DNA of 64,000 nt, taken from NCBI GenBank assembly GCA_965153355.1, contig OZ231126.1, forward strand, positions 20,212,001-20,276,000, in the 5' to 3' direction. The stretch comes from Flaccisagitta enflata. Lineage: Eukaryota. A model generated the notes under the pieces. It was not told the DNA's origin. It made no database searches and was given only the letters and a program-made list of their open reading frames with translations. Position numbers and translations under genes: made by a program. The stretch's first letter is position 1. Every line of letters begins with the position of its first letter. This document shows, piece by piece, positions 1 to 63,378 of the stretch.

Positions 1-219
1 CACACCGCATTTCCCTTTCAATGTTTTTCTTTCTACTATTGTCCCATACGTTTCCATCTAGGAGAAAGACTGACAATCCGTTCACTCGTTCGATTTTCAA
101 CGTGTTTAGAAATCTCCATTCGTGCCCGTGTTGCCATCATCTGGAAAAGGATTGGGTATTACATAAAAGAAGGTCTCCATTGTCATCCAATATGTTCTAT
201 CATTTTCATCAACAGTAAT

Positions 220-354
220 ACAAGGCCAAGTAGGCCAATAAGGTGCGACGTGTGGATCGTCTAACAAATGCGTTACCCGGCCAACTGTCAGACCAACCAG
301 CCCATCCACAGACGGACACAGCCAGTTGTAGAGGTGCTTTGTCGTACCAATAAA
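220..354 (-). mobile_element. HINE/DINE-like (Helentron-associated) element, family 1
   Basis: Close copies at 54038-54156 and 56365-56498, a shorter one at 43725-43835. Sub-TIR GGTGCGAC..GTCGCACC, internal (GTCY)n, 3' GGCC-TACTT-GGCC hairpin, T-rich flanks. Confidence 0.75.
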
Positions 355-358
355 TGGG

Positions 359-1587
359 TTAAGCATATGCAGGGGTCTCACCATCGTCGTTGTCTTTGTC
401 GTTGTCTTCATCATCATCATGACTTTCGGTGTTAAACGAGTACTCGTTTCCTTCATCCTTCGCCTTTTTCCCGTTAACCCCGAAAGGAGTTGGACTCTCC
501 TCAATGATTGCCCGTCGCCTTCTTTTCAATGGACGCAAGTCACCCAGATCTCCTTCACCGCTTGCATCTTCATCGACTGGGGTGAGGTGGACATCATCCC
601 CCATTGGCTGTAGGGTAAAAGGATAGGATCGTCAGGCCAAATTCTTAAGCATGGATGGGAGCAAGGCCAACGAATAGCCCCTATATCCCTACCCTGCACC
701 CCCCCCTCCCGTTCAACGCTTTAAACAATTTTTTTTTAGCGGACACGCGACTACACCTTACCAGTCAGTTGGTCCGTGTGTCGCTCTGTTGGTCTGTCAT
801 ATTTTCTAATTCAAAGGGTTTTTTTTCATTACTGCTCCTGAACAACCGTTTGTGACTGGATGGCCGTGTATCTGTCCTTGTTTTACATACTTGGAGGTTT
901 TCGTTTTCCACCACCTTCAATCGTTTTCGACTTTCAAAAACCGGTTTCTGTTTCTGTTCTTCAAAGTTTTGGGCGCCATCGTTGTCACTCAGTCCGTTTC
1001 CACCCTCCGAGCTGATGAGAAAATCGTCTCCCATAGACTGTGAAGGAAGGGGGAAGTAAATGTTGAAAGGAAACATTTGGGTTGAACAAGTAAAAGAAAT
1101 GGACAATAAAATCGCCAGTTCATACTATCTCCCCACCCCCAACACACTTGGGCTTCAAGAGTTATCAAATCAAACTCACAACGTGGGGTGTTTCCAGGTG
1201 AGTTGGGAACTCAAATGATTCCTCGATCTTTGGGATGGGGCTCAAGTGGTCGAAATCCGAGCCGAATGAGAACAACTGCTCCGAAGATGAGTCGGTCTCC
1301 TCCGAAGATGAGTCGGTCTCCTCGTAACCTTCGTTTTGGCCATCCGCATGGAGTTGGTCGTTGTAAGAGCTGTCGTTGTAAGAGCTGTCGTTGTAAGAGC
1401 TGTAACTAGTATCAGTAAGGAGAGGCTCGATGTCCGAGTGCGGAGAAGAGACGTCCGAAATGGAAGATACACCGGAAATTTGCGACAAATCGATTGTGTC
1501 GTCCTCCGGACCGTAAGAAGAAGAATCGAGCGTGACATCTTGAAGTGTTTTCGACACCGACTCTTCCTCGACTTTCTTTTGTGACAT
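359..1587 (-). CDS. Spliced acidic, Ser/Asp/Glu-rich low-complexity protein (exons 1587-1180, 1037-891, 607-359; may splice further 3')
   Basis: Donors GTGAGT and GTATGT, acceptors cacag and tacag, all phase 0 and frame-preserving. Exons 2 and 3 both begin xMGDD. Internal 15-bp x3 and 21-bp x2 coding repeats. ATG lies 89 nt after the transposase stop. Confidence 0.65.
733..882 (+). mobile_element. HINE-like element, family 2 (intronic)
   Basis: TTTTTAG..ACGCGACT 5' end and GGCCGTGTATC..CCTTGTT 3' end, shared with 23783-23904, 40016-40170 and others. Confidence 0.65.
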
Positions 1588-1676
1588 TGCGATTGAGAGT
1601 TATGGATTTATTTTTTAGGAAAGAGGGTTGGCATGGACCTGAACGACCAAACCAAGAAGTCATGAAAAAGACAAAA

Positions 1677-4600
1677 TCATGGGATTAATGCAACCCATTC
1701 ATTTAGGGGATTTTTCTCATAGTCATATCCGGTATAAAGAGGACGGCGCAAATAATGATAAGAGGAAGTATGATCCTGTTCGTAAAATGTTGACTTGAAT
1801 TCCTCTAAGAGGACTACGTTAAACCTTTTGTTGGGAGTTTTTTGGTCAATCTTTGGAACACGTGTATGGGGATCAATTGTAACAGAAAAAACCTGTCCAA
1901 AGAAGCCCAATTTTGATGAATCCTCTTTTGCTATGAGTAGATTATCGATTCGAACAAACTCGGTGTCTGATTTGAAGTAAAATGTTGTCTTATGAAAGTT
2001 GGTGTTAAGTATAGTTAAGGTTGCGAGTTCTTCAAAGTCCCCTTGACCAAAGGTTTTCCATAAATCCTTTGTTCGCTTTGAAGTTTTATTCCTTTTAATA
2101 CGTATGCGTGACCCTTTCTTCTTCCAACTTCGTAGAGGATTGAGGATGGAAAACCGATTGGAAAAGAAGGCCGCTTTACGTTCATGCATGAGGGCCGGAT
2201 AGTTTACGATCGATTTCCTGTTATTGGCCTTCACAACCGCGGTTTTAAAAATTCGATGACTGTTCTCTCCTCGTCGTGTTGAGCTCCCCACGGGTGCTGG
2301 GCCAAAATCCCTTATTCCCATCGGCGCATGAAGAAGATAATGGTCCTGTACATTTTATGAGGCAATCAAGGCAATAAGCATTAAAAATCAACACGACCCC
2401 GGACAAATTGATGACTCAAAAAACAAATTGCACAAGATGGAGAAAGTAGCTAGTATTTACCTTTGGTTTAAGAGGAGGATTGTACATTGATGGTGGTTTC
2501 AGTCTTGGTTTCTTTTTTGGAGGCGCCTCCTCCTCTTCATCCTCCTGGTTTTCTCCCTCTGGTTCCTCATATTCTTCCTCATCATCCTCACACTCTTGCG
2601 TCTGATCATTCTCAGTCTGAGTAGTAGTTTGACTGCCGCAAGGACCACGCTTCCGTTTTTGACTCGGAGTATTGCCTTTTTCCTGCTCCCTTTTCTTTTT
2701 CTCATCATCATATTTCTTTAGGTCGGAGGCATAACTGGCGTTTCGTGTAAGGTCCATTCTCAGCTTATACATGTTCCAAAGAAGTTTTTCGATTTCCACA
2801 ATATCCCCCTCTGTTACATGGTTTCTGCAAAACAGCTCGTCTAACTTGGCCAATGTGTCCAAGAGTTTGAATTCCTTTGTCAGGCAAATTGCTCGATAAT
2901 CATTGAACGAATGAAAGGCGACTCTTGTCAGTTGAAGGGTTGTTGACAGTTCGGCGAAAGAGCCTTGAAAAACCGGGTGTGGAGTCCCTGTCCAATGTTT
3001 CTTTGAAAAGGGAGGGACCGGATTTTTTTGATGCCTCCCAGTTTTCCGTGGGATGACTCTGTACTTGTCGTCTAATTCTTCAATCGTGAATCTCTTCTTT
3101 GTTAAGAGAGATTTAATGGCAATCCCAAAGCATTCTTTGGCAGCTCCTCCGTGGAAGTTATGCCAAACGTCCCCTGGCAGGTCCCTGCCCACATCAAAAT
3201 CAGTCAATCGCCTCAGTGGTGTGTCCTGGATAACGCCATCGACATTGAATGCGAAATTTTCCCGACGGTCGCCCAAGAAAGAAAGGAATTCATCAGCGTC
3301 TTTTGCAATTTTATATTTCTTCTGTTCGATGTTGCACTGTCTGCAGGGGTGGGTAATGTGAGGGGTAAAGCTTGCTGGTAATCCAGCTAATGGATTCATG
3401 CACAGCGAATCCCCAATGAATTCACCCAAAATAAATTTTACTTTGTCATTCCCAAACTTACAAACTGTTTCCGTGAGGGTGTTCAATTGGTCCACAACTT
3501 TCTCCAAAACAACGTTATAATTGTACTTGGTGATCTGATTGGATTGGCACATGCCTAGTAGCAGGACACATTTTTCAGTGGTGCTATGAGCGGTGAGGTG
3601 TATAAATATGTATATACCCAAGATCTTATTTTTTGAATTATGCTTTGTAAAACCACGATCCAGGGTTAGGTCGTCAGCAAACACAGTAAAGACAATGCCC
3701 TTTTCGTCTGGTTGAAGTTTTTTCAGTTTTTCCTTTATTCGATGGCCGTCGTATATGGATAAATACCTCACCTTGTGGTGTTCATCATTTGCCAAACATT
3801 CCTCATTGTAATTTTTGTTTTCCTCCAGAAATTCTTTGGACTTCTCCCATAACTGGAGCATCCCCTCTGTGTTCAAAAACCGTTGGATAAGCTTTTTGGG
3901 GTCAAACATGAGGATAAAGTCTTTGGGGTTTGTGTCGTTACTCACAAAATAATGGATGTATGGTTGGATGACATTTTCCCTTTCTTGAAATGTTTGTTCA
4001 CGTTTGTATTTGGTTTCAAACTTTGCAGAATGGAAGGGATCAGCCAAATGGTTTTCAAGTTTTTCTCTCATCTCACGAATGGGGGGGTCGTGTAGCTCCA
4101 CTTGGTAGCGATTGAGAGTATCTGTAACGATGGACAGGACTGTTTTTCTTAAGATTTCACCAATATCTGCCAAACTTTTTCCAAGAACATCTAGGGCAGT
4201 ATCTTGCACGCCATAAATATAGCGCAGACTGCCATACATGGTCTGCAGTATGGGGCATATCTCATCAACATGCTCCATATTTTGAGAAGAACAAGTGTTG
4301 TTTTCTGGGGTTGCATTTGGGTTTGGAGCATTGTTTGGATCGCTTGTGCCATCACCTTCATTGTCATCCTCTACATCAGCTTCACCAGGATCCACACCGT
4401 CAACTTCAACTTGATCTCCATCTCCATTATTGTTTTCACAGTTTCGCACATGTATGTTAAAAGGGATGAGCTCGTTTACGTGTTTGTTAAAGCAGGACTG
4501 TGCCCTTTTTTTCACGGCCCAACTCCGAGAACATCCTTCAAAGATACAGAGTACCGGTAGTGGTTGCCGGTAATCATGATCTGGATAATGCGCCAGGTAG

Positions 4601-4929
4601 TGAGATTTTATCTTTAACCGATTTTGAGTTTCAAAGTCATTGGATGGGAATAGGTTGATTTTCTGCTGACAAATGCGGCAACGGTGGTATCGTTCAGCTT
4701 GATTAGGAGGAATCGCCGTTGAATATGTGTGATATTTTTCAAGATGACGGAAAAAACAAGTTTTTTGGCGTTTTTTAAACTTGAACACGGTTGTACAGAA
4801 GATGCAGACGTGACGGTTATCAACCACATGTTGGGTCATATGTCTGTAAGCCTCCTCTAGATTATTTGAAACAACCGTTCGGCACAATCTACACTCCCTG
4901 TTTGGGAGATTAGGAAGAGATGTTGACAT
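1677..4929 (-). CDS. CMC/EnSpm(CACTA)-type DDE transposase with N-terminal C2H2 zinc fingers, ~1045 aa, 2 exons (4929-2461, 2345-1677)
   Basis: Motifs match animal EnSpm-like transposases as I recall them: FADDL..KILGIY; GDSL..LAG...SF...PCRQC; GV..DTPL....FDV...LPGDVWH; and, after splicing the 115-bp GT-AG intron (2460-2346), PK|DHYLLHAPMGIRDFGP...RRGENSHRIFK (cf. PKHH..HY..I..FGP....RFE.KH..FK). Three to four CxxC..H..H fingers at the N-terminus. Confidence 0.88.
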
Positions 4930-5213
4930 TGTCTACCACTTGTTGAAAAAGTCTTTGTTTTTTTGTTCGACAGTGTCACTCATCGTAACCATGTGTTGCC
5001 CAATATCTTTTTCTACATGAATCGAAAACAAGGAAATGTTTTGCGGAAAAAAACCACAGCATTTTAAAACATATACACGCGGGGATTGCCTAAGATGAGG
5101 TCACTTTATGTTATCTGGTGCCAGTGTCCAGAAAATGTCTGGGGGCTCCACCCCTGGGTAAAACCAAAAAAGTCAATGCATTCATGAAAATAAACGCAAA
5201 ATATTACGCGAGA

Positions 5214-5688
5214 TATACATGGGGGTGAGAGTAAAAAAATTTTTTTGAATTTTTTGCATACTTTTCCAAAATTTGGGAAAAGGGGAACCCTGTCGCACTA
5301 AAAAATACGCCGAAAAGTCCCAAAAAAAATTGTAAAGGATTTTTGAAAATTCGTCTTAAAGCCTTGACAATTTTCTCCACCACAAAAAAGGCTAAAATTT
5401 GCAAAAATGTTCAACCATTTTTTTTTATATTCGCAAAACCATACCAAATCCTCCAGATTCTTTTTTATCTCACTTCAGTGACTATGCAAAAATCTTTTTA
5501 AATGTGGTATAATTTTTTCATCTTTGCAGCCTACATGTCTACACGCGACTTGGCCAGCTGTGTATCCGGCCTTGTATAAAGAAAAATTTCCCACCAAAAT
5601 TTTTTTTTTATGTAAATAATTTTTTTCTAAGTTAATGAAACATGCTAAAATATGCATAAAAATTTTTTGCTTTCACCCCTATGGATAT
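5214..5688. mobile_element. Degenerate AT-rich MITE-like insertion
   Basis: Imperfect terminal inverted repeats: tatacatgggggtgagagtaaaaaaattttt versus the reverse complement of the right end, tatccataggggtgaaagcaaaaaattttt. Confidence 0.45.
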
Positions 5689-5807
5689 ATAATCAAAACA
5701 GTCTCCGCTTTCTTTTTTTATACTAGAACATTTATAAGAAAGATGTGAAAAGCAATCCAGGAAACCTGTACCAGTACTCTTCTAGTCAACTGCTTATTGC
5801 ATATTGT

Positions 5808-6842
5808 TCATTCATCGGAGATTTCAATAAGAATTTGGTCTGGATATTCCCCAAAGGTTATGAAATCGTGGTACCCCACATGACGAAGCAAGAAATCTTC
5901 ACGCTCACAATCTTCAGAACAGTACACTGCTGGGTTCGAGATGTGACGATCAACGCACCACTCGCATGGATCAAACATATTAAAGATGGGCTCCGTCTTT
6001 TGGCAACGTTCATTTGAGCACGACCGTCGCAAATCATCTTTACGCCGTTTGTGCATCTCGTGGTGTTCGCGCCAGTCAGCTTTGAAACAGCCCCTCCCGC
6101 AGTAGAAGCTGATATTGAAAAAGGAGAATGGTTAATAGGAAAAAAATAAAACAATCTGTTTTCAGTCGCAGACATGCAACTCCACCTTGTATAATTATTT
6201 ATTTTTTTTTTTACTGCTTCGGCAAAACCCTCCGCGACTGGATTGCCGTGTATCCGGAATCCTTGTAAAAGGGCTTCACCTTATTTTGTGGACCAAACCA
6301 AGTCTTTTCGCATCCTTGAAAACTTTAAAACAAATCGGACAAGCGTGATGTTTTGTTTCCACGTGGATCCCCTCCACGTCGCCGCATTTTTCGCATTTTC
6401 TGGGCTTGCCATTTACATAAATTGGCTCCCCAGGTTTTCCATAGAATTGTTGATCTCGGTCCTCTGGGTATTCCACCTCACACATGTCGTCGTCGGCACC
6501 AGAAACGTCGACGCCAGAAGCCGAAGCGGCGTCAGCGGCGCTCGAAGCGGAACCCCCAACTGCGCCGTTTATGTCAGAAGGGGCGTCAACGCCAGAAGCC
6601 GAAGCGGCGTCAGCGGCACCGACATTGCTCGTAGGGGTAACTCGTGATTCTCCCTGTAGTGTTGAGGTTACAACGTCGTGTTGACCATGCGATTCAGAGT
6701 CCATTACAATAAGATGGTTGACGGACTCCATTATCCCCAGGTATTCGGAAAGAGCGTTTACGCCAGGGTTAGTGTCAGGACGATCTGAAAGGACCTCCCG
6801 ACCATGGCCCTCATGGGAACCATGGTTTCTTTTTCTATCCAT
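5808..6842 (-). CDS. Tandem MYND-like (zf-C6H2) zinc-finger protein A, ~287 aa, 2 exons (6842-6280, 6108-5808)
   Basis: Phase-2 intron joins CEKC...CPIC...HKI|SFYCGRGCFKADWREHHEMHK, which resembles the MetAP1 zf-C6H2/MYND pattern. A second finger follows: CSNERC...CEWC...YCSEDC...H...H. Confidence 0.75.
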
Positions 6843-7150
6843 TAATTTTGACTCGCAATTCTTATTCCACAGTGCACTTTTATGATAGGAGAGTTTTATT
6901 TTAACCAAACATAGCTAAACAAGTAAAGGAAACAAGATGGTTAGGCTACCATGTGTATGTAAAATAAACAACAAATGGAAATGCAAACTGCATGTGAATC
7001 ATAACAGGTTGTGCGATACCCCGGCCCAAACTGCCATGGGCACAAACAAGTAAAGGAAATGGTTTTCCCTTTGTTTACCCATAACCCTATAACCATAAAC
7101 TGGATAATAATGAGGAAGTCGAGAAACGAGAAACAAGAAACTTTGGCGAT

Positions 7151-8816
7151 TTAAATATCCATGACAAGCGGCCATGACAAGAACGTGAGACCAGGAAGGG
7201 TGATATCGTCCTTACAGTACTTTCTCTTCTTTGACGTTGAATCCGTACCGCTACTACCTTCGGTCATGTCACGGCGACAGAGGACGTGGACGTCACGAAT
7301 AACAAAAGACGGTGAATATCTTTTCTCTGGACCACGCGCGATTGTGACAAAGGGCCTTTTTGGCGAGCATTCGTCAAATTTCTCGCGTATCCTTTGCAAG
7401 GATTTTATCCTGGGGTCCTTTTGAGCGTGGCTTGAATAGTGGACTCCAGGGAATGGAGGCTTAGCAAGGCCGAAACGTACATTTTCACACGGTCCAATCG
7501 AACGCGAACGAGGTTTGTTGCGCTCCCATTTTCCTTTACCAGCCAAGGAACGCGAACGCCGTTGACACTCCCTCGCACGTTCACCGATCGCTTTTCCCGA
7601 ATACCTAGGAGTTGCAATAGTTAAGGTTTTTTAATTAACTAGTTAATAGTTAACTAACTAAAAAAGCTAAAATAGTAAAAATTTTCACCCTATTATTGAT
7701 AGAATTTACAAAAAAATTTCATTATTTTTATACAATTTTCAAATCTATCAATAATTTCAGTATTGATTTCACTGTTTCAGGCTAAAAATCATCAAGTTTC
7801 TATGTTGCAATCCAAATATTTTTTCTTTATGTCAAAAAATTTTACCAAAAATCATGTCATATACAGGAAAAAAGGTGATTTACCACCCATTTCTCCTTAA
7901 AAACAGTTAACGGTTAGGGGTTCTCAGAATTTTTACTAGTTAACTAGCTAGTTAAAGTTAACTATTGCGAGTCCTATGAATACCCAAAATACGAGTGAAA
8001 AGGCTTGGGGTGGGAATTGTGACGAAACCGAGATAGGTGGTGGTTCAGTGGAGAAACCTCATTGTCGGTTTTTAGCCCACTATCGTTGTCACTATTGTTG
8101 TCGCTTTGTGATCCACCATCATCAAATAAACCAGCTTTTAAGGTACGGGCAGCGACGCCGGAAGCATCAGGAAGGGCAGTGGCGGCGCAAGAAGCGGTGC
8201 GAGAAACGCAAACATCAACGTCAACGTCATCGTCGACATAACTGGTGACAGTGCATTCCTGGCAGTTGGGAGCATGGTTCCCAAGGCCGAGACAGCGGCG
8301 ATGCTTGTACAGTTCCCGACTACGATTCCAGATTCTTAATGAGTCGGGGTCGCGCGTGCGCGCGCACTGAGTGGTGGGATCAACGCCGGAAGCATGACCA
8401 TAATTAGTGGTTGGAGAAATGTTGACGGCGGCGCTGGAAGCGTAAGCGTCGGAATCGGCGGTGAAGGAAGTGCCGCAAGTAGCTTCGATGGTGGCACACA
8501 TAGCGCTGGCAATGACGCCGGAAGCGTTGGCGGCGGCGGCGCAAGAAGCATCAGCGGCGGAAGCAGCAGCGCAGGGAGCGGGACGTTTTGAGATGGGCGG
8601 TGCGGTAATGTTAACGGCGTTGGCTTCCGTATCAACATCGGGAAAAGTTTCCATGGAATCGGAATCGAGAACCAAATTTTCATCCACGGAAAAATGGGCA
8701 CTTTGGGATAGTGGAGGAAGGCCAGTATCTGAGGTCAGAACCGGGAAAGTGCCAGGAGAATCGCCAATCCGATTGATAATAAGGGATGAGCCTGTATCCA
8801 GGGGTGCACATTGCAT
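7151..8816 (-). pseudogene. ~428-aa orphan ORF interrupted by a hAT-type MITE
   Basis: Removing 7606-7976 plus one TSD copy fuses ...HSYFGYS to GKAIGERARECQRRSRSLAGKGKW... in frame. Ala-rich ASGV repeats and a C/H cluster (RCLGLGNHAPNCQEC). Confidence 0.7.
7606..7976. mobile_element. hAT-type MITE (371 bp)
   Basis: TIRs TAGGAGTTGCAATAGTTAA and TTAACTATTGCGAGTCCTA; 8-bp TSD cgaatacc/tgaatacc; internal TAACTA-rich subterminal repeats. Confidence 0.85.
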
Positions 8817-8927
8817 TTTTAAGTAAAGGAAAATATTCTCTTTAGTTGCGTGCAACGCTACCACACCCCGCTTTGTCAGTGCGTCGGTCGGTTGCTAGGT
8901 TAGTCATCCCTTTTTCCTTTTTATATG

Positions 8928-9329
8928 TTAAGTAAATGTGGAACTCTCACACATGACATGCACGCGATGACCTTTCCCAAAAAAATCCCACCTTACAAAA
9001 TGATTTCTTACACATAACATTGCTATTTTTAGCCAAAGAAGTGCACCTCTGGAAACACCATCATCTTGGACGTTTTTGACATCATCGAGAGTGTCATGTT
9101 CGTCATCATCTTCGTCGTCATCATCTTCGTCGTAACCATCTTCGTCATCAGCGTCATCATCGTCGTCGTCGTCACCATCGTCATCGTCGCCATCCTCATC
9201 GTCGCCATCCTCATCATCAATGCGCATGTCATTTTCAAACTCCCGTAGAAGAAGATTTACAACCACGTCTAAACAGTCGAAACCAGGCTGTGGTGGAGAA
9301 CCAGGCTCTTCCTCTTCCGGAGACTGCAT
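8928..9329 (-). CDS. Acidic (poly-Asp) orphan ORF or first exon
   Basis: ATG at 9329, Asp-rich core, possible donor AG|GTGGGA near 8992; downstream splicing is uncertain. Confidence 0.45.
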   Translation of the reverse strand: MQSPEEEEPGSPPQPGFDCLDVVVNLLLREFENDMRIDDEDGDDEDGDDDDGDDDDDDDADDEDGYDEDDDDEDDDEHDTLDDVKNVQDDGVSRGALLWLKIAMLCVRNHFVRWDFFGKGHRVHVMCESSTFT

Positions 9330-9830
9330 ATTGTATATGTGGCGTTTGTCATGCAGAATCAAGTTTTCTTATAAATGATGTGCAAACTGGTTAAGCAAAA
9401 ATAACCTTTTCTTGAGGCACAAACGAGTAGCTCCTGTACAGACAGCTTTTAAACAAGGTCATTCACAATCGCTCAAAGGAGTATTAACCCAAATTGGGTT
9501 GGAACATAACAACTACTCATAATTAGAAACCATAGGGATTATCAAGGTGAGGAGGTGACACAACACCCAATATCTCATCAATTTCCGCCACCGTGAGTGG
9601 TGTATTCCACCATTCCCGAAAGAGGCTCATGGGTGACCTTTCGCAGGAGAGATCAGAAGAATTCAATTCCCCCGGACGGACCAACTCCCCACCATTGGGC
9701 ATTTTCGTACCGAGCTGTAAATAGACATTTGGGAGATATAAAAGAAGTAATACCCAATTACGCTTGCTCTCTCTCTTTCTCTCTCACTGTCTCTCACTCT
9801 CTCTCCCTCCAACCCTCCAACCCTCCCTCC

Positions 9831-11254
<1,424 letters not shown>

Positions 11255-11301
11255 TCTACTAATTTCTTATTATTTTTCCTTCTGAATGAAAAATGATTTG
11301 A

Positions 11302-11676
11302 ATGACATTTTCCTATTACATCCAACACCAAAATTTTTTTGGGAAGATAAACATGCGTGTGAAACCTATGTTTATGATATTATCAATAGAAAATGAAGAT
11401 ACATCAGGTAACTTTTTTCATCTTGCATATAATTCAACGATGAATTATGAACAGGCCAAATTATATGGCACAATTTCCCAATTTGTGAAAGATAGAAATA
11501 CCGGTAAATTCTTCAAGCCCTTTTGGGCAAACCACAAGGTATACCTAAACGACGGGGTGATCATCAACCTGGAAAACAGCCATGTCACAATTATTAAAAC
11601 AAAAATACCCTTCTTTATTGGTATCCGAACAGGTAAAGCAAAAATCAATATATACCTAAACAGCAAAAGTGAGTAA
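11302..11676 (+). CDS. 124-aa orphan ORF, opposite in orientation to its neighbours
   Basis: Open frame in AT-rich DNA filling the gap between two minus-strand genes without overlap; no motif recognised. Confidence 0.35.
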   Translation: MTFSYYIQHQNFFGKINMRVKPMFMILSIENEDTSGNFFHLAYNSTMNYEQAKLYGTISQFVKDRNTGKFFKPFWANHKVYLNDGVIINLENSHVTIIKTKIPFFIGIRTGKAKINIYLNSKSE

Positions 11677-11725
11677 TGCTCAACATGGAAAAGTAACAGG
11701 TGACCGATAGGTGACGGAGCAGAAA

Positions 11726-12396
11726 CTACTGCCTAGAAAAAAAATGGGGGTGACATTTTCTGAACGCCTTGTCGCACTCACGACTACAAAAGAAATGTTC
11801 AATTTCCGTAGTGTAGTGGAAAATTCTGCCTGCACGACACGAATCGCAGGGGGACCAGAACCCATAACGAGGTTCCCTGATGTTGCAGTTGGAGCATCGA
11901 CGACGGATGTGATCGAGTTTCCGTTTGTGTGTCTGGCGGTGGCGATCCCAATCCAATTGAAAGCACTTCAAGTCGCAGTAGAAGCTGATGAAGGAAAGAT
12001 CAACAGAAGTGAGATTAAGTGTGCAGGAGCTGAATTTATAGGTCTCTTCATCATGTATCCTTGTAACAGGCAACCAAGACGAAAAAATAAGAAGGAAACA
12101 CTGCGACAGGATGAATAAAGAGATATTCACCTGACGGGTGTAGATTCTCGAAGGCCCCATAGATTCAGTCTTTCCACTTCTTCCCGGGACTGATAGCAAA
12201 TGGGGCAGTGTAGGCACGAGTTGTCTTTAACGTCGATGTACTCGTAACAGTACTCGCAAATCTTCGATCCGGGTACGTTACTGTCGCAGGCCCCCAATTT
12301 ATCACTCAAGTCAGGCCCAAAGATGGACATCTCGGTAATAATGTTTCTAAGGGATTCAAGGTTTTCGCCAGAGCGTATGTCATGTCCCATCGCCAT
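11726..12396 (-). CDS. Tandem MYND-like (zf-C6H2) zinc-finger protein B, ~174 aa, 2 exons (12396-12131, 11984-11726)
   Basis: Phase-2 intron joins CEYC...CPIC...TPV|SFYCDLKCFQLDWDRHRQTHK. Second finger CSNC...CDSC...FFCSREC. Same intron position and acceptor (cag|cttctactgc) as protein A. Confidence 0.78.
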
Positions 12397-12801
12397 TACA
12401 ACTGATAAATGTGCTATAGGAGTAAGGAAAGGTCACCTACACATGTGAAAAACATGAAAGTGAACAAACAAGCTTGTAGAGACAGAGAAAGAATGAGAGA
12501 TCAAACTGACAAAGAAAAGCAGTTTTACCCGTAGCACGTGTTTTAAAAGGGAAAAAAAACCGCTGGTATCACAGCCTTGTTACACAGCCTAAGCAAACAA
12601 TGAGAGAGTGATGTTGCACCATGGGGGGGGGGGGGAAATAAAATCTTTTGTTGAATATAACACAGATAAGCTAACGGTATCACATATCAATGTTCAATGA
12701 TCACATATCGCTGATCCAAAGTTTGTTACAACCACAAGTATCATCAGTTTGTTTCGACCACATAACCTCATCACGTAACCTCATCACGTAACTTCATCAT
12801 A

Positions 12802-13777
12802 TCAAACCAAGAGTCCCGAAAAATCTGGGTAATGAGTTGACAATACCTCATTATCTACATCCATTTCTTCACCATTGACATCATGGTTATTTATTATCAC
12901 GATACGAGGGTTTTCATAATCCATGGTCCGTCGAAAAAGTACGACGTCGTCATAATTTAAGCCTGCAGCAAACAATTTTAGGGGATATAGGTCACAAATG
13001 GCCAAACATTTTTCAAGTGTAAAAGACTCCAACCGTCCCAGCCGTGTATGTATTTCAGTCAGTCTCTTTAATTATATGTACGTCCTAAAATTACATTTTT
13101 TATTGAAAGCCTGTTTCAGGGTCACTGCTCCTGCACAATCGTTCTGTTAGTCATCACTGCCCATCCCCACCAACACGCGACTGGGGTAACCTTTTATTTG
13201 CCCCTTTTTTTGGGGGGGGGGTTAAGATTGTCTTTCTGTTGATGAAGCTTCCCTTATGTATGGACATGCACATTTTTTCCTAACATACTGCTGCTGACAT
13301 ACTGCCCACCCACACGCGACTTGACAAGGAAAAAAAAAAATGGTTCTTGCCTATAAAGGTCCCAGTGGTGATGTGATTGATACGATCTTGATTGCCATGG
13401 TGAAATGGGGCTGCACCAAGTTGACTTAGGATGATTGAGACTTCCATAAAAGGATGATAGTTGAAACTGGATGGTATGGCATGAGCACCCAAAAAATCAG
13501 CATATTCCGGTGGCTCAGGATAATTACAAGGCAGAGCGACGGGTAGAATGTTGTTGGTGAGATGTTCCCTTGAATTGGTATACCGATAAAGAAGCCTCCC
13601 TTCCAGTGTTTCGGCGACAAAAACTCCTGCCTTTATTGATATTTTATCCGCTGGATAATCCTGCATTAGCTGTGCTTGGATCTTTCCAAGACGATACCAT
13701 AAATCATTGGATGTGGGTGAGAGGTTGTCACGAGTGGTGCACAGGCCAGGTTGAAGACATGGTGAAGTGGTACCCAT
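12802..13777 (-). CDS. Orphan gene; two ORF segments (13777 to ~13350 and ~13065 to 12802), probably spliced
   Basis: Both segments have complex, protein-like composition and are separated by HINE fragments. The exact junction is not resolved. Confidence 0.45.
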
Positions 13778-14479
13778 ATTATGATTGGGTTCCTGGCCTT
13801 TCTATTTATACAGTGAACAGTTAACAGTTTGTATATCAAATATCAAATATCTTAATTAACAGAAAAGAGCTGGATTGATGTGAAAACAGTTATTGGCTAA
13901 AATCAAGACAAAAAGGGAGAGATGCCAATTACAAAACCTGCCACGTAGATATTGGATTTCTTACATTGTATCTCATTCCAATGGGATACAATTTTGGGTT
14001 TTATTTTCGGTAGTATTTTTAACAACTATTTGGAGTTACATAAAATATATACCCAAAAAAAAAAAAAATTTATGGGGGGGTTTTTCTTTAACTTTAATAA
14101 TTCTTTTTTTAACCTTTTACCAGAAAGATTCGTATTCACATTCCTTACACCCTTATTTGGAAAGCAGCCGCGGAGCATGGGTAAACAAAAGTTGGGATGT
14201 CTCCCTTTTTATGTCGTACTACGAATCCAAAACAAAAATATCACTTTGAGATGTGAAAATTACCTCTGGAGGTTAACAACTTTGAGGTACCACTGTAACT
14301 GTTAAAAAAATTTTTTTTTTAAAATCAACTAAAAACATAAAAGTCAATTCGCCGATGGAGACCAAATCAGGAAAAACGTAAAATGAAATACCATTTCTTC
14401 ATGGTAAACAAAGCAGTACGTAAAGAGACATGCTTTAAAAACTAAAGTTTTTCATACGTAGAGCGAATAATTCTACTGT

Positions 14480-15719
14480 TCATTCACGCACTAAATCGTT
14501 AAGAATTTGCGCGAAACGACGTTTGTCATCTGTGGTTTGGAAAGAAAAGCGTTGACGACCGAGTTGTAACTCCCAGGTTGATGTCGCCTCCAACGTTTCT
14601 CGCAACGCAGAAAAGGCAGAACCGTGACCACGCTCGCCTTCGCGCTTGGGAGGCGACTGCTCACAGGCGATCGAGGCGTCGACCGGGCACTTGGCAGAAG
14701 GGCCCCCAACAGATTCTGTGGGAACCCGTACACCAAACACCTTTTTCTCGCATGGCAAAGGGGACGTGTGAATTTCGTTTTTTATCCCGGGTGACTGTGA
14801 GGATAAAAAAGAAAGGACAGGGACCGGATAACTAGTTGTGACGTGCAAGTTGCACATCAACAAGAAGAGACACTTTGTTTCACAGCAAAAAGGAAAAATC
14901 CTTTTTTTTAACTTACTCCAATTGAGAAATCTTGTTGATTCACCTTGTTTGGCACATCGCCAGGAGCCATTTTACGCGAACCCTTCAAACAACTTCGACC
15001 AATGGGAGGCGAAATGACCGGTTCTTTGTACAAAGCCTTCCTTCCGTAGTCCTGGAGGTGAACATGAGGTGAAAAGGAGATGAGCATGAGGTGAAAAGGA
15101 ATTGGAAACAGCGAAAAAATAGTGGGAACCTAAAGGGAGTAATGAATGTTGACTTTCACCATTGATATTACTTTTTGTATACCTGAATACACCCAGTACG
15201 CGCATTAAATACGCGCAGGGGAGGAATCTGACGTGGAGCGCCCAGAAAGAGCCCGGGAGGAGGGCAACCCGGAATCAATCGAGGCGGGAGCGGTTCCATA
15301 GACGAGCGGGGAGGTTGGTACTGCTCGAGGACCTGCTCAACCTTGCGACGAGTGAACGGGGAAATACGAGACTCGGTTCCCGGAGGATCCGGCTCCGGAG
15401 AGGAGTTGAAGGAAATTTGACGCCGGACTGGGTTGTTCTTTGGCCCATGGGAGGGATTCGGTGAATGAAAGATTTTTCCCAAGATTGGACGAGGGTTGGC
15501 CGGAAACGCTTGCTGGAGTTCCACATCGACCTTTGGATCGTAGTCGATCGATGAAGCATTGGAGGATGCTTGATTCAACGGCGATGGCGATCCTTGATTC
15601 GAGGGCGAACGTGGAGGGGTGGTGACCACACTAAGTGATGACTGGGACGAGAAACTTTCATATTCTACTTCTATTTTCATGGAAGACTCCTGATTTGCCA
15701 GATTCCCAACGTGAGCCAT
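14480..15719 (-). CDS. Pro/Ser-rich orphan protein ~328 aa, 3 exons (15719-15183, 15051-14917, 14794-14480)
   Basis: Donors GTATAC and GTAAGT, acceptors ctccag and cacag, all phase 0, continuous frame. Confidence 0.7.
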
Positions 15720-16321
15720 CTTTTTTGATTTTATGACTATGATGAATTTGACGTGTTCATTAAAAGAGCTTTTTAATTGCACCTGCAAAGGTAACCAACA
15801 AGGCGGGTATAACAAGGCAGGACTGCAAAAAGAAAGGCGGAACGACCGAAACTATCTTGTAAGAAAAGAGAACCCAGTACGGTAAATGATATTTAAAAAT
15901 GGAAATCTAGGGAGTTCATTACAGGATGACAAAATAATTTTTTTTTTTTTTTAAATGTAAGCAAAGTTCTCTTTTTACTTTTTTATTTATGGAGGGAACA
16001 TTTTTACCACAACAATCAAAACACCCATTGGAACAATAAGCCCTTTTTTTTTCTTTTTCACATATATGAAACACTTTAAGTTAGATGTCTTCCTTTAATG
16101 ATTAACCCAAAACTTCCTTTTTTACACAACATTCACTGTAACTGTATAATGTGAGAAAGTAAAACACTTCCTTCAACATTTATGAACATAATCAGCTAAA
16201 CAGGAAAGAAAAATGTCGAAGAGAAACCACTAACAAAAGCTGGAAAAAACTTTGACAAAGAAGGATATCTACAATTACATACTTTAATAAAGAGCGTGTA
16301 ATTCTAATAAGTAGTGAGGCT

Positions 16322-17113
16322 CTACAGATCCTGGAAAAAACCCCTCTCATCATCGCTTGTACGGTCATCGTACCCATGGTCGTCAGCGTCGTCAAATTGA
16401 CTTTCGTCATCAGACTCTTCACCTTCTGACGCAGAAACTGGACCACCGAGTAACCAAGAGTCATTCTCATCAAGAACACTCATTTCTTTGGTCATCTCCA
16501 CCCCAATCCTCTCAAACCATTCACGCATGAGCAGATCTTCATCCTCCTCTTTGGCCATACGCTGACTGCCATCATGTGGAGAAAAACCAATTGCTTCCGT
16601 ATCAGAACCGCCAAATGGGACCTTGTAGGAATCCCTCTTGGCCTCCGTCTCTAAATCGGTCTCGGAATCCGTGTCGGAAACGATGTCATCGTTGAGGTAA
16701 TCTTTGATGAAAAGCGCCGTTTTGTTCCGACCTTCGATACTCAAGTTGTCGTACCATCGCCTCCACTCCGCAAGCGGCGAAATATAAACGTTTTCCGCCA
16801 CGGCGTACTCGGAATCCCAGTCGGAAGCCGTGTCGGACAACCCAATCGGAAGCCCTGTCGCTATGAAGGGAGAATCCATGCCGAAGTAGGAATCTGTAAA
16901 ACAGTCTGTGTCGGCATCACCGTCGTAATCAAGGGCGTCCACTTCATCGGGGGATACATCGACGGGACGTTTTACGTAATCTTCGATGGCTAAGGAAATC
17001 TCGAAACGTTGATCCAGGCTAGTGTGGTCGTACCATTGCCTCCATGACGACAGCGGGGATGGAGAGATGAGATCCGTTTCGCATACATCGCCGTCGCAGC
17101 AAGGGCAGGACAT
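16322..17113 (-). CDS. Acidic orphan protein with a duplicated SPLxxWRxWYD module and N-terminal CPCC
   Basis: Single long ORF, likely start MSCPCC at 17113. Internal repeat SPLSSWRQWYDHTSLDQRFEISLAIEDYV / SPLAEWRRWYDNLSIEGRNKTALFIKDYL. Confidence 0.65.
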   Translation of the reverse strand: MSCPCCDGDVCETDLISPSPLSSWRQWYDHTSLDQRFEISLAIEDYVKRPVDVSPDEVDALDYDGDADTDCFTDSYFGMDSPFIATGLPIGLSDTASDWDSEYAVAENVYISPLAEWRRWYDNLSIEGRNKTALFIKDYLNDDIVSDTDSETDLETEAKRDSYKVPFGGSDTEAIGFSPHDGSQRMAKEEDEDLLMREWFERIGVEMTKEMSVLDENDSWLLGGPVSASEGEESDDESQFDDADDHGYDDRTSDDERGFFQDL

Positions 17114-17765
17114 CGATGAGGGTGCTAGGACCACCTTCCTTTTGTACTTGGTGAGGAAGAGGAAGATGGGATCCAAAACCCAATCACCCTTATGAAGGAG
17201 ATAACCATTGGTTTTTGTGGCACAGCGATACAATTCTCCTTATTTTTAAGGGACAAAGGAGGTACATTCACACATTCCCCCTACATACAACTATCACTCA
17301 CCTCCCAATCATGTGGGGATTCCGAAAGAGACATTGGCGCTTTTTCTTGATTTCTAGGATCTCACTGCCTGTATATTTAAAAAACTGCATGAAAAAAAAA
17401 TGGCAGAGTGAGCAGGAAATAATCAATTAAAAATTTTTTTTTTAATTGATTGATTGATTGATTAAAGATAATAAATCTAAACTCGGTACCAGACATTAGC
17501 TACCAGATAAGTATTGATCTTGAATAGGAAATCGCTGGGGATCAATAAACAGCGAAAAAAGCAACGTTGGTACAGAAAGCATATACAAAAGGAAACACTT
17601 TTGAAATCTAAATCTTGATCAGGCATATAAACCCACCATTTTGTCCAAACTTTTGTAAGTTAGGGCTTATGGCCAAAACATTCATTGAAAATGAGAACGA
17701 TTCATACGACATATTTTAGGGTGAAGGATACGACAAGTTACAATTATAGCGCCTAACAGGTTCCA

Positions 17766-28800: not shown

Positions 28801-29338
28801 TGAACAAGGCCGCATATACGGCTACGGAAGTTGCGTGCGAGTGGGAAGGGGCAGTGATGAAAAGGCTAACCCAAGCTAAAACGCTAATACGCCAAAAAAA
28901 TTTAGTAAGTTTGAACTTAATCACTACGCGGGAGGATAGACAGTCTGGCCGACGTCAAAGTGTGGGAAGACGCATACGATGGCGCCCCCGGTTGTATAAC
29001 TCCAAGTACAGTGGAAATCCGATTTAATGGCCTTCAAGGGACTGGGGAGTTATGGCTGTTTAATCCAAATGTTACTAAATCGAATTACTAATTTTTGTCT
29101 TTTTTTTTTAAGTTTTTTAATGTGTACCACTTCAAAATGTTTTTGTTTTTTTATTTCATTGTACATCTAAGTATGCCTCTGCGTTTTCATTCCATTTTTT
29201 AAATATCAAACATACATGTTGGTTAAATAAAAGATTGACATTAAGATTAACAAGGCCAGATACACGGCTACCCAAGTCGCGCACAGGTGGGCAGGGGCGT
29301 TGAAAAAAGGCCAATCACGCTTTTTGGCAGGAGCAGTA

Positions 29339-35067: not shown

Positions 35068-35660
35068 ACCATAAGTGCAATAAAAATGGCCGATTTTTCA
35101 ACAGCTTTGTGCACAGGTTTTGGTCAAAAGATTCTTGGGACCATCCTAAAATTCATGCATTGTAGAAACATATCAAAATTATCTTTCATTTGAGTCCATG
35201 CAGCAAATTTTTTCTCAATTCTTTTAGAAAATATGACAGATTAAGGGCTAACAACTAAATTGCCACCTCATGAAAAAAGGGCCGAATTTGTCACTCGGAT
35301 TTTCTGAAATATTTTAGATGAGTAAAAATGATAGAAGATCTTTATCGATTTCGATGAAATTTTAGGTGCTAGTTGACCTGTATTTGCCCCAATATCAATT
35401 CAATTTTTATCAATATCGGGCAACGTCTTCTGTGATTTTTTATGGAACTTTGTAAAGATACCATGGGCAGCTTCAAAATTAAGTGGTTTTGCTAATCTTA
35501 CTCTCATTTGCATATTCATTGAGTTAGTGGTCCCACAAAAGTTTCAAATGAAAGATCTTTTGAAGGGCTTTCAAGGTGTCATGAATTTTGCTATGTTCAG
35601 ATGAATTTTTGATCCTTTACGGACCTTTCAAAAATCGGCCATTTTTATTGCACTTATGGT
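35068..35660. mobile_element. MITE, 593 bp, TA-flanked
   Basis: Perfect ~31-bp TIR ACCATAAGTGCAATAAAAATGGCCGATTTTT. Confidence 0.85.
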
Positions 35661-35662
35661 TA

Positions 35663-40015: not shown

Positions 40016-40170
40016 AACAAGGCCGGATACACGGCCATCAGTTGCGGACGGGTGGGCAGGGGCGGAAATGCGCGTTTTCTCACTTTTCAACTCGAGCGTG
40101 ACGGACCAACGGACCAACCAACCGACGGACGGACAAAGCCTCTTATAGAGTTGCGTGTCCGCAACTAAAA
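40016..40170 (-). mobile_element. HINE-like element, family 2
   Basis: AGTTGCGGAC sub-TIRs, (GTCY)n, GGCCG-TGTATC-CGGCC hairpin. Confidence 0.75.
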
Positions 40171-48450: not shown

Positions 48451-48818
48451 GACACAAAAAAGTAACGACCACAACAAAGGCAACAGCAACGAATCCCACC
48501 AACCTTTACTCCAAACGTCTTTACATGGGTCGTAGACTTCGACTGTCTTCATGTTTTTGCATCCGGAAGCGATTCCTCCCGCTACCACGACGGTGCCTTT
48601 ACAAGCCGCTGCCGCCGCAGCCGCCCGCCGCTCCCGCATCGCGTGCGTGTACAACCAACGATCTTCTGCCGTGCTGTAAATCTCCGCCTCTTTTAAAGGT
48701 TGTCCGTCTGGACCGAAGCCGCCAACAGCGTAAATGTAACCGTCCAGGTGACAGCAAGAAAAGTCTGTGCGCTTGCTTTGGAGGGATTTGAGAATGTAAG
48801 GCGAGGGAGGGAGAGAGA

Positions 48819-48909
<91 letters not shown>

Positions 48910-48958
48910 GCTCAGACAATTCATAATCTTTTTGTTTGCCGAGAAATGATATCGGTTT

Positions 48959-49048
<90 letters not shown>

Positions 49049-63300: not shown

Positions 63301-63378
63301 TTACGGCACCTTTGCATTTTTCATTTTGGTTGAGTAGGGACAGATTATTTTCTTTAAATAAATCTATCTATCTATCTA

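What the first reader, a model, noticed from the sequence alone, without database searches (positions are those of the whole stretch)
5808..12396. Two paralogous double MYND-like/zf-C6H2 zinc-finger genes beside the transposase
Neither gene shows in the ORF track until spliced. Both have CxxC..CPIC..|SFYC...CF..DW..H...HK, a second finger, and the same phase-2 intron (GTGAA donor; cag|cttctactgc acceptor), yet they are very diverged elsewhere, which implies old duplication with retention. Known: MYND fingers are protein-binding modules, often for chromatin co-repressors. Inference: they could be element-encoded anti-silencing or host-modulating factors, analogous in role to VANC proteins of plant VANDAL transposons.
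Basis: partly seen in the sequence, partly recalled or inferred. Interest (0 to 1): 0.75.

Follow-up and report, generated by a model that had tools for sequence, protein, structure and literature searches.

The report
Paralogous MetAP1-type double zinc-finger genes
Two real, spliced sister genes in an unidentified marine eukaryote each encode a small protein with two MYND-like (MetAP1-type) zinc fingers, but nothing shows that they travel with the transposase-like gene next door, so this is a modest new gene family and not a demonstrated transposon accessory factor.

Summary
Gene A (5808-6842) and gene B (11726-12396), both on the minus strand, are two-exon genes. A phase-2 intron (GTGAAG/GTGAAT ... 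ATCAG|CTTCTACTGC) splits a first Cys6His2 finger, and a second, more divergent finger follows. They are true paralogues (exon 2: 37% identity, E 5e-15). Their exon-2 family profile finds the N-terminal C6H2 finger of methionine aminopeptidase 1 as the nearest solved structure (E 8e-4). Exon 2 of A passes Pfam's zf-MYND cut-off; B does not. Relatives are few (7 in 1.84 billion representatives), and unspliced ORF calls from other assemblies end or begin at the same splice sites.

The transposon reading is not supported. The neighbouring 1045-codon gene resembles a CACTA/Plavaka-type transposase only by predicted structure and has no Pfam hit. I found no terminal inverted repeats or target duplications. 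Other assemblies carry the whole co-oriented gene block in the same order, with 98-99% identical transposase variants, which points to one locus and not independent insertions. More distant family members sit on contigs up to 29 kb that hold no member of the two transposase clusters found here. No RNA evidence and no genome were available.

Verdict: a new member of a known domain kind, with mobility unproven.

The parts
6280..6842 (-). Gene A exon 1 (ATG at 6842). Encodes an N-terminal tail with a variable Ala/Ser/Gly/Asp repeat and the first half of finger 1 (C-x2-C ... C-P-x-C).
   Evidence: The 188-aa unspliced ORF call is in the protein collection at 100% identity (P0039). All 7 aligned relatives end at the same ...LVHKIR + stop, which is the read-through of the AG|GTGA donor.
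6109..6279 (-). Gene A intron, 171 nt, phase 2, GTGAAG ... ATCAG. Contains a copy of a short dispersed repeat (about 6225-6270).
5808..6108 (-). Gene A exon 2 with its stop codon. Encodes the second half of finger 1, a basic linker, finger 2 and a C-terminal tail.
   Evidence: P0003 93% and P0004 61% identical; both ORF calls keep the translated acceptor ...FFNIS before FYC.
6051..6395 (-). Gene A finger 1 (residues 150-207, spans the intron): C-x2-C-x13-C-P-x-C-x17-[F]YC-x3-C-x7-H-x3-H, a Cys6His2 pattern.
5868..6020 (-). Gene A finger 2 (residues 218-268): C-x4-C-x12-C-x2-C-x10-YC-x3-C-x9-H-x4-H.
   Evidence: The Pfam zf-MYND match is below the cut-off but covers profile positions 3-35 of 39 (14.5 bits).
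12131..12396 (-). Gene B exon 1 (ATG at 12396). Encodes a short N-terminal tail and the first half of finger 1.
11985..12130 (-). Gene B intron, 146 nt, phase 2, GTGAAT ... ATCAG.
11726..11984 (-). Gene B exon 2 with its stop codon. Encodes the second half of finger 1, the basic linker and finger 2.
11927..12258 (-). Gene B finger 1 (residues 47-108, spans the intron). Same ligand order as in A, with 22 residues between the second and third ligand pairs.
11744..11896 (-). Gene B finger 2 (residues 119-169). Shortened before the last ligands (ends C-H-P-H). No Pfam hit on its own.
1677..4929 (-). Context, not shown to be one unit with A or B: the transposase-like gene. Exon 1 2461-4929, intron 2346-2460 (GTAAAT...CAG, phase 0), exon 2 1680-2345, stop 1677-1679; 1045 codons.
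   Evidence: P0002 runs across the junction. The ESM Atlas structure search gives Plavaka and Transposase_21 clusters at TM 0.71-0.73 and unnamed clusters at 0.77-0.78. No Pfam hit.

Best explanation
A and B are functional, spliced, anciently duplicated members of a small lineage-specific family of proteins built from two cross-brace, MYND-like Cys6His2 zinc fingers. The first finger is nearest to the N-terminal finger of methionine aminopeptidase 1 (MetAP1). They are most simply read as resident chromosomal genes in a conserved block of co-oriented orphan genes. That block also holds one CACTA/Plavaka-like transposase-derived gene.

Likely mechanism (inferred). Each finger holds two zinc ions through eight Cys/His ligands. 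Like the MetAP1 finger and classical MYND fingers, each would dock a short Pro/Leu-containing linear motif of a partner protein. A protein with two such fingers would then act as a bivalent adaptor or as a competitor for such motifs. The basic linker between the fingers (H-K-R-[RK]-x-D-x-x-R-R) may serve as a nuclear signal.

Shown: gene structure, paralogy, ligand pattern, family similarity and conserved synteny. Inferred: zinc binding, peptide docking, localisation and the absence of mobility.
For: - **Gene structure and paralogy:**
- **Splice sites kept in relatives:** 7 of 7 aligned A-like exon-1 ORF calls, including the 62%-identical P0044, stop at the donor read-through (7 of the 23 cluster members listed were aligned). 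P0003 and P0004 keep the translated acceptor. The 626-aa relative P0006 ends in a first half-finger at the same point.
- **Junction supported by an uninterrupted finger:** alignments to an unbroken tandem MYND protein (P0007) run across the exon junction.
- **Domain:** Pfam results. The profile of exon-2 relatives finds MetAP1 chains 4iu6, 8p2k and 9fq0 at E 8e-4, and the ZNG1-MetAP1 finger fusion 7sek at E 2e-3. The nearest ESM Atlas clusters are all zf-MYND, at 0.84, which is only a lead.
- **Function of the MetAP1 finger:** it binds a CPxLxP-type motif of ZNG1 and the beta-NAC C-terminus (PMC11672702, passages read).
- **Residency:** contigs of identical length tie the transposase, gene A and the acidic ORF together (18308 bp), and the transposase and gene A (6797 bp). 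The four genes at 10.9-17.2 kb are tied together on contigs of 8197 bp, and three of the four on 9187 bp. Six of the 13 transposase variants were compared: all are 98-99% identical and fall into a few haplotypes that share six differences from the window. Neighbouring genes have as many variants as the transposase or more (5-37 against 13).
- **No element ends:** no TIR or TSD was found.
Against: - Gene A lies only 876 bp upstream of the transposase-like gene, on the same strand.
- Both genes have a diverged counterpart in the databases: for A, P0044 (62%) and P0004 (61%); for the transposase, P0002 (48%). That could mean a two-gene unit has diverged as a unit.
- Copy number could not be measured because no genome is held.
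- The left end of any element could lie outside the window.
- The complete spliced finger 1 could not be scored against Pfam. Only its exon-2 half was scored, and for zf-C6H2 that half stays just under the cut-off (29.0 against 30).
- Gene B has no counterpart at all in the protein collection, so its conservation is untested.
- Zinc binding and peptide docking rest on analogy only.
Confidence: 0.6

Rival explanations
1. Element cargo. Gene A, and possibly the whole co-oriented block including B, belongs to a low-copy CACTA/Plavaka-type (CMCT clade) DNA transposon. Its MYND-like proteins would bind host chromatin or silencing factors to protect the element, in the manner of VANC proteins of VANDAL elements or TET/JBP cargo of fungal transposons.
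For: Gene A and the transposase-like gene are adjacent and co-oriented. They stay linked on two further contigs. Both have one diverged counterpart in the databases. No gene of the block at 1.7-17.2 kb has a Pfam family apart from the fingers. CMCT and KDZ transposons are known to carry anti-silencing cargo (PMC12730594, passages read). VANC precedent: PMC5735166 and PMC10398659 (search listing and start of abstracts only).
Against: No TIRs with CA..TG ends and a 2-5 bp TSD were found. The best candidate is an 11-nt poly-T match with a 4-bp flank repeat at 726/5332; it encloses only the transposase-like gene, and the two sides diverge immediately inside. The linked contigs are the same locus and not new insertions. 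The transposase has no more variants or contigs than its neighbours. P0006-bearing contigs of 26-29 kb, and the P0005 contigs, match no contig length of either transposase cluster. Neither gene has a second copy anywhere in the 64-kb window.
Confidence: 0.2
2. Domesticated pair. The transposase-like gene is a host-recruited, immobile CMCT transposase, and gene A is its functional partner. The MYND-like fingers would tether it to other proteins.
For: The 1045-codon frame is intact and has its own intron. Variants across assemblies are 98-99% identical. Neither ends nor extra copies were detected. Linkage with A is conserved.
Against: There is no evidence that the two proteins interact. The conserved linkage extends equally to unrelated neighbours. 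Without the DNA of the variants, selection could not be measured.
Confidence: 0.12
3. One or both genes are decaying or non-functional copies, and the finger pattern is a relic.
For: Finger 2 of B is shortened before its last ligands and has no Pfam hit. No B-like protein exists in the collection. The next gene upstream of A on the minus strand, gene C (7151-8816), is interrupted by a MITE-like insertion.
Against: Both reading frames are open through both exons, and the splice signals are intact and identical. All eight ligand positions of finger 1 are kept in A and B at 37% overall identity. The finger half of A is better conserved than the rest of the protein in the 62%-identical P0044.
Confidence: 0.06

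Closest known systems
N-terminal Cys6His2 zinc finger of methionine aminopeptidase 1 (Pfam PF15801 zf-C6H2; PDB 4iu6, 8p2k, 9fq0, 7sek)
   Same: The second half of finger 1 ([FY]C-x3-C-F-x2-x-W-x2-H-x3-H-K plus a basic tail) aligns to MetAP1 residues 33-65. The ligand order is the same: three Cys pairs and then His-x3-His. The MetAP1 finger is a cross-brace, peptide-docking module (PMC11672702).
   Different: There is no aminopeptidase domain. There are two fingers in tandem. The loop between the second and third ligand pairs is much longer (17-22 residues) and carries an intron. The Pfam score of the exon-2 half is just under the cut-off (29.0 against 30 for A, 23.2 for B).
Classical MYND fingers (Pfam PF01753), here represented by the tandem MYND protein P0007; the known partners of MYND fingers in co-repressor complexes are recalled from memory, not from a call
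   Same: Same cross-brace ligand layout. Exon 2 of A passes the Pfam cut-off (28.6 against 22.7). Finger 2 of A, P0008 and P0009 align over nearly the whole profile, but below the cut-off.
   Different: The last ligand is His, not Cys. The spacing between ligand pairs is longer. B scores below the cut-off (15.1). In the alignment to P0007, the C-P-x-C pair of A and B lines up with the first Cys pair of the canonical finger, not the second.
Accessory anti-silencing genes of DNA transposons: VANC of VANDAL (PMC5735166, PMC10398659) and TET/JBP dioxygenases carried by CMCT and KDZ transposons in fungi (PMC12730594)
   Same: A small non-transposase gene lies next to, and co-oriented with, a CMCT-like transposase gene.
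   Different: Those cargo genes lie inside elements with defined TIRs and TSDs and occur in many copies. Here no ends, no extra copies and no independent insertions were found. There is no sequence relation to VANC or TET/JBP.
CMCT clade of DDE transposases (EnSpm/CACTA, Mirage, Chapaev, Transib, Plavaka) - for the neighbouring gene only
   Same: Predicted-structure likeness to Plavaka and Transposase_21 clusters, and language-model feature likeness to RAG1 clusters. A C-x2-C motif follows the conserved G-D-S-L-C-M-N-P-L-A-G stretch, and an H-x2-H lies in the invariant P-G-D-V-W-H-N-F-H-G-G stretch. This is comparable to the C(2)C and H(3-4)H motifs described in PMC12730594.
   Different: No Pfam hit at E up to 10. 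The histidine motif is H-x2-H, not H(3-4)H. No CA..TG termini or TSD. Apparently a single locus.

Membership tests
zf-C6H2 (PF15801, MetAP1-type MYND-like finger) | Eight zinc ligands in the order Cys pair, Cys pair, Cys pair, His-x3-His | tested here: met
   Finger 1 of A (residues 150-207) and of B (47-108) match the pattern in the spliced products.
zf-C6H2 (PF15801, MetAP1-type MYND-like finger) | Pfam profile score at or above the gathering cut-off (30 bits) | tested here: inconclusive
   Only the exon-2 half could be submitted: A 29.0 bits and B 23.2 bits, covering profile positions 24-46 of 47. The spliced whole finger was not scored.
zf-C6H2 (PF15801, MetAP1-type MYND-like finger) | Sequence similarity to the solved MetAP1 finger | tested here: met
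   The profile of 5 exon-2 sequences (A4) hits MetAP1 chains at E 8e-4 and 22.6 bits, and 7sek at E 2e-3. The match is weak and covers the second half of the finger only.
zf-C6H2 (PF15801, MetAP1-type MYND-like finger) | Cross-brace fold binding two zinc ions | not testable with these tools
   The AlphaFold2 model of exon 2 has mean pLDDT 48.5, too poor for a fold search. Zinc binding needs an experiment.
zf-MYND (PF01753) | Pfam profile score at or above the gathering cut-off (22.7 bits) | tested here: inconclusive
   Exon 2 of A scores 28.6 bits in two stretches (met). Exon 2 of B scores 15.1 bits (not met). Finger 2 alone: A 14.5 bits, B no hit.
zf-MYND (PF01753) | C4-C2HC ligand set with Cys as the last ligand and a short loop between ligand pairs 2 and 3 (as recalled for the family; spacing compared with P0007) | tested here: not met
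   The last ligand is His in finger 1 of both genes. The loop is 17-22 residues, against about 4-5 in the P0007 fingers.
CMCT-clade DDE transposase (neighbouring gene 1677-4929) | Match to a curated transposase profile (Transposase_21, Plavaka, DUF4218) | tested here: not met
   No such Pfam hit at E up to 1 or up to 10.
CMCT-clade DDE transposase (neighbouring gene 1677-4929) | RNase-H-like transposase core resembling known members | tested here: inconclusive
   The ESM Atlas's own model (pLDDT 0.61) aligns residues 384-731 to Plavaka and Transposase_21 clusters at TM 0.71-0.73, and to unnamed clusters at 0.77-0.78. My own AlphaFold2 model was unusable (pLDDT 31.6). PDB sequence searches found nothing relevant.
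CMCT-clade DDE transposase (neighbouring gene 1677-4929) | [quoted passage not shown] | tested here: inconclusive
   C-x2-C is present and invariant between P0001 and P0002. The histidine motif is H-x2-H. The catalytic residues were assigned by eye only.
CMCT-clade DDE transposase (neighbouring gene 1677-4929) | Terminal inverted repeats (usually CA..TG) flanked by 2-5 bp target duplications | tested here: not met
   Four searches gave only chance-level or low-complexity pairs. The left end may lie outside the window.
Transposon-encoded accessory (cargo) gene | Lies within the element's ends and is found with the transposase at independent insertion sites | tested here: not met
   No ends were found. 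The two other contigs that link gene A to the transposase carry the same locus. Copy number in the genome could not be tested.

The most novel reading that the evidence does not exclude
Gene A together with the transposase-like gene (perhaps the whole co-oriented block including B) is a low-copy, divergent CACTA/Plavaka-type transposon of a marine eukaryote. Its cargo would be MetAP1/MYND-type double fingers that dock onto Pro-Leu motifs of host silencing or chromatin factors. That would make it the first MYND-like anti-silencing cargo in a DNA transposon. I found no paper describing such a case: searches gave one, no and 57 papers, and none of the listed ones reports it.
Probability: 0.12. 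Interest if true: 0.7.

Novelty: new member of a known kind. Interest (0 to 1): 0.3.

Why it matters
The result adds a small, rapidly diverging family of tandem MetAP1-type (Cys6His2, MYND-like) zinc-finger proteins from a poorly sampled marine eukaryote. The family has a conserved intron inside the finger, which prokaryote-style gene callers miss: every database relative is an unspliced half. If the fingers dock Pro/Leu motifs as the MetAP1 finger does, such free-standing double fingers could act as adaptors or decoys for those motifs. The proposed link to a transposon would be notable, because no MYND-like transposon cargo turned up in the literature searches. At present, though, the evidence favours ordinary conserved synteny.

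Tried and rejected
- **Whole genome:** none is held for this window, so copies could not be counted.
- **RNA evidence:** no RNA holder was listed. Laying the four offered runs on 1500-9050 placed 0 reads of the polyA RNA-seq run, and only 31-45-nt unitigs on a dispersed repeat at 6226-6257 and on the MITE edge. This is no test of splicing or expression.
- **Structure:** both AlphaFold2 models were too poor to use (exon 2 of A pLDDT 48.5; transposase pLDDT 31.6), so I ran no fold search.
- **Gene B relatives:** 0 hits among 2 candidates. The exact look-up of the B exon-1 ORF found nothing.
- **Metagenome scans (JGI):** the transposase alignment gave 169 pattern matches but no relative. Exon 2 of gene A gave 53 pattern matches but no relative.
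- **Viral contig scans:** none of four returned a locus. One search reported 2 relatives by tblastn but returned no locus, so this could not be followed up.
- **TIR/TSD searches:** only chance-level pairs.
- **PDB sequence searches with the transposase:** nothing relevant.
- **Rfam and tRNA scans of the window:** nothing.
- **Earlier findings of this scan:** nothing on this genome or these sequences. The word search returned only unrelated transposon notes.
- **Spliced finger 1 against Pfam:** not done, because only contiguous references could be submitted.

Full report
**What is there.** The window is eukaryotic. It has GT-AG introns, reverse-transcriptase ORFs and long microsatellites, and it has no tRNA or Rfam hits. 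No whole genome is held for it. On the minus strand between 5808 and 12396 lie two genes that appear only when spliced.
- Gene A: exon 1 6280-6842, a 171-nt intron at 6109-6279, exon 2 5811-6108; 287 codons.
- Gene B: exon 1 12131-12396, a 146-nt intron at 11985-12130, exon 2 11729-11984; 174 codons.

Both introns are phase 2, start GTGAA and end ATCAG. tblastn of the spliced products finds no third copy in the 64 kb.

**Paralogy and reality of the genes.**
- The exon-2 products share 37% identity over 75 residues (E 5e-15). The finger halves of exon 1 share 31% over 36 residues (E 2e-4).
- A HMMER search of exon 2 of A against 1,835,955,588 representative proteins found only 7 with E up to 0.001.
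- The close hits are prokaryote-style ORF calls over single exons. P0003 (93%) and P0004 (61%) both carry the translated polypyrimidine tract and acceptor just before the first coding residues.
- A search with exon 1 of A found 6 proteins among 5235 candidates. I aligned 7 of the 23 members of their clusters, and all 7 end at the same read-through of the donor. This includes P0044, which is only 62% identical and whose finger half is better kept than the rest of the protein.
- The 626-aa relative P0006 has four copies of the second-finger type and ends in a first half-finger at the same point.
- Alignments of spliced A and B to an uninterrupted tandem MYND protein (P0007) run straight across the exon junction.

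Together these results support the splice models without RNA data. Direct RNA evidence could not be obtained.

**What kind of finger.**
- In the spliced products, each protein matches an eight-ligand pattern twice. Finger 1 is Cys pair, C-P-x-C, [FY]C-x3-C, H-x3-H, which is a Cys6His2 set. Its loop between the second and third pairs is unusually long, at 17 residues in A and 22 in B, and holds the intron. Finger 2 follows a conserved basic linker.
- Pfam on exon 2 alone gives, for A, zf-MYND 28.6 bits (cut-off 22.7) and zf-C6H2 29.0 (cut-off 30). For B it gives zf-C6H2 23.2 and zf-MYND 15.1.
- Finger 2 alone gives only a match below the cut-off for A, though it spans nearly the whole profile (14.5 bits). 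B gives none. P0008 and P0009 give 17-19 bits.
- A profile of five exon-2 sequences finds, among all PDB chains, the N-terminal finger of methionine aminopeptidase 1 (4iu6, 8p2k, 9fq0; E 8e-4) and the ZNG1-MetAP1 finger fusion 7sek (E 2e-3).
- The nearest ESM Atlas clusters are all zf-MYND at 0.84, which is only a lead.

The family is therefore best filed as MYND-like, MetAP1-type Cys6His2 fingers. It is not a classical MYND finger, because the last ligand is His and the spacing differs. The AlphaFold2 model of exon 2 was too poor for a fold comparison (pLDDT 48.5).

**Likely mechanism.** According to passages read in PMC11672702, the MetAP1 finger is a cross-brace double-zinc module. It binds a CPxLxP-type motif of ZNG1 by strand addition and is needed for docking to the C-terminus of beta-NAC. 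Classical MYND fingers likewise bind PxLxP motifs; that point is recalled from memory, not from a call. By analogy, A and B would be small bivalent adaptors or decoys for such linear motifs. Their N-terminal tail is variable and acidic or low in complexity. The repeat at 6506-6617 varies by insertions and deletions among database variants. Zinc binding, peptide docking and localisation are all inferences.

**The neighbouring 'transposase'.**
- The 838-codon frame at 2416-4932 continues, after a 115-nt intron (2346-2460), into 1680-2345, giving 1045 codons. The relative P0002 runs across that junction.
- It has no Pfam transposase hit, even at E up to 10, and no relevant PDB sequence match.
- The word-based search scored 7999 candidates and found only two clusters, at 99% and 48% identity.
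- The ESM Atlas's own model aligns residues 384-731 to Plavaka and Transposase_21 clusters (TM 0.71-0.73) and to unnamed arthropod and chordate clusters (0.77-0.78). RAG1 clusters appear by language-model features at 0.91-0.92.
- A C-x2-C and an H-x2-H lie in stretches that are invariant between the two clusters. This resembles, but does not equal, the C(2)C and H(3-4)H signature of the CMCT clade (PMC12730594, passages read).

I accept 'CMCT-like, transposase-derived' as probable, but not as shown.

**Is it one mobile unit?** Four searches for inverted repeats with flanking duplications gave only chance-level or low-complexity pairs. They covered the region around the transposase-like gene alone, around transposase plus A, and out to 30 kb. 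The best candidate is an 11-nt poly-T match with a 4-bp flank repeat at 726/5332, and the two sides diverge at once inside it. Apart from A's 34-nt internal coding repeat (6506/6584), nothing between 400 and 19,000 is repeated elsewhere in the window.

Because contigs could not be fetched, I used contig lengths as fingerprints.
- One 18308-bp contig carries a transposase variant (P0010), exon 1 of A (P0045) and the acidic ORF (P0079).
- One 6797-bp contig carries P0013 and P0058.
- The ORFs at 10.9, 13.3, 15.2 and 16.3 kb share a contig of 8197 bp, and three of the four (all but the one at 15.2 kb) a contig of 9187 bp.

So the whole co-oriented block recurs in the same order in other assemblies.
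- I compared six of the 13 transposase variants. They are 98-99% identical to the window's and fall into a few haplotypes that share six differences from it. The 807-aa forms differ from the 837-aa forms only in lacking the first 30 residues.
- The transposase cluster has no more variants than its neighbours (13 against 5-37).
- More distant finger relatives (P0006 on 26-29 kb contigs; P0005 on up to 6 kb) share no contig length with either transposase cluster.

All of this fits a single resident locus seen in many samples.

It does not exclude a low-copy element. No genome is available, the left end may lie outside the window, and both A and the transposase have one diverged counterpart whose linkage could not be checked. 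Scans of JGI metagenome contigs and viral contigs found no relatives to test.

**Comparison with known cases and novelty.** Accessory anti-silencing genes are documented for VANDAL elements (VANC; PMC5735166 and PMC10398659, listing and start of abstracts only). They are also documented for fungal CMCT and KDZ transposons carrying TET/JBP genes (PMC12730594). Three literature searches for MYND fingers as transposon cargo returned nothing on the point.

The defining features of cargo were tested here and not met: position inside defined ends, and co-occurrence with the transposase at independent insertions. The finding is therefore a new, small subfamily of a known finger type, with a neat conserved intron, sitting next to a divergent transposase-like gene. 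The transposon-cargo reading keeps a probability of roughly one in eight to one in five.

**Verdict.** Interest is low to moderate.

Noticed in passing
window 7151-8816 (-), insertion at 7605-7977: The ORFs 7974-8894 and 7151-7630 are one gene ('gene C'). Removing 7605-7983 restores a single 428-codon frame from the ATG at 8816. The removed piece is a 373-bp MITE-like insertion with imperfect 20-nt inverted ends (17 of 20) plus one copy of the direct repeat GAATAC. Database variants of its first part are 280-305 aa, so the interruption may be widespread.
   Followed up: partly
window 863-882, 5530-5580, 6225-6270 (inside the gene A intron), 29249-29268, 40016-40035: A short dispersed repeat, about 50 nt, beginning ACAAGGCC.GATACACGGCC. 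Metatranscriptome unitigs of 31-45 nt with depths up to 1100 lie on the copy at 6226-6257. Its nature is unknown (repeat-derived RNA, or a very abundant repeat).
   Followed up: partly
window 217-362, 43789-43837, 54036-54156, 56357-56497: A second dispersed repeat of about 140 bp, 80-88% identical between copies. It has an internal (GACC/GACA)n tract and an inverted GGTGCGAC/GTCGCACC pair. The ORF at 106-525 overlaps it and is probably not a gene.
   Followed up: partly
window 6506-6617 (gene A exon 1); similar units at 8150-8582 in gene C: A coding repeat rich in Ala, Ser, Gly and Asp, with two 34-nt units 97% identical. Database variants of gene A differ mainly by insertions and deletions here (188 to 237 aa). 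Relatives P0005, P0008 and P0009 also carry Ala/Gly/Val/Asp-rich stretches next to the finger (upstream of it in P0008 and P0009, downstream in P0005).
   Followed up: partly
window 1677-17239 (-): Nine or more ORF-bearing genes all lie on the minus strand with short spacers. Apart from the fingers, none has a Pfam family, and all were found only in unnamed ENA or Logan assemblies. The ORFs 10901-11266 and 9831-10355 look like exons joined across the (CT)n array (GTAAGT donor near 10946, CAG acceptor near 10338); the frame was not checked.
   Followed up: partly
protein P0006 (626 aa; unnamed ENA contigs up to 29344 bp): A larger family member with four second-finger-type repeats. Its C-terminus is a first half-finger that stops where the intron of A and B begins, so the true protein is probably longer and spliced.
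   Followed up: partly
window 11711-12118 (+): A 135-codon ORF runs antisense to gene B exon 2. It may explain why gene callers produced no B-like protein in the collection.
   Followed up: no
window 60542-63367 (-), 35628-36541 (-), 48599-49272 (-): A 941-codon reverse-transcriptase ORF (RVT_1, E 7e-20), a broken reverse-transcriptase fragment, and a Kelch-motif exon embedded in long homopolymeric codon repeats.
   Followed up: no
Viral-contig scan: The scan with exon 2 of gene A reported 3 pattern matches, 2 of them relatives by tblastn, but returned 0 loci. A DNA pattern scan and a degenerate alignment scan found nothing. Unexplained.
   Followed up: partly
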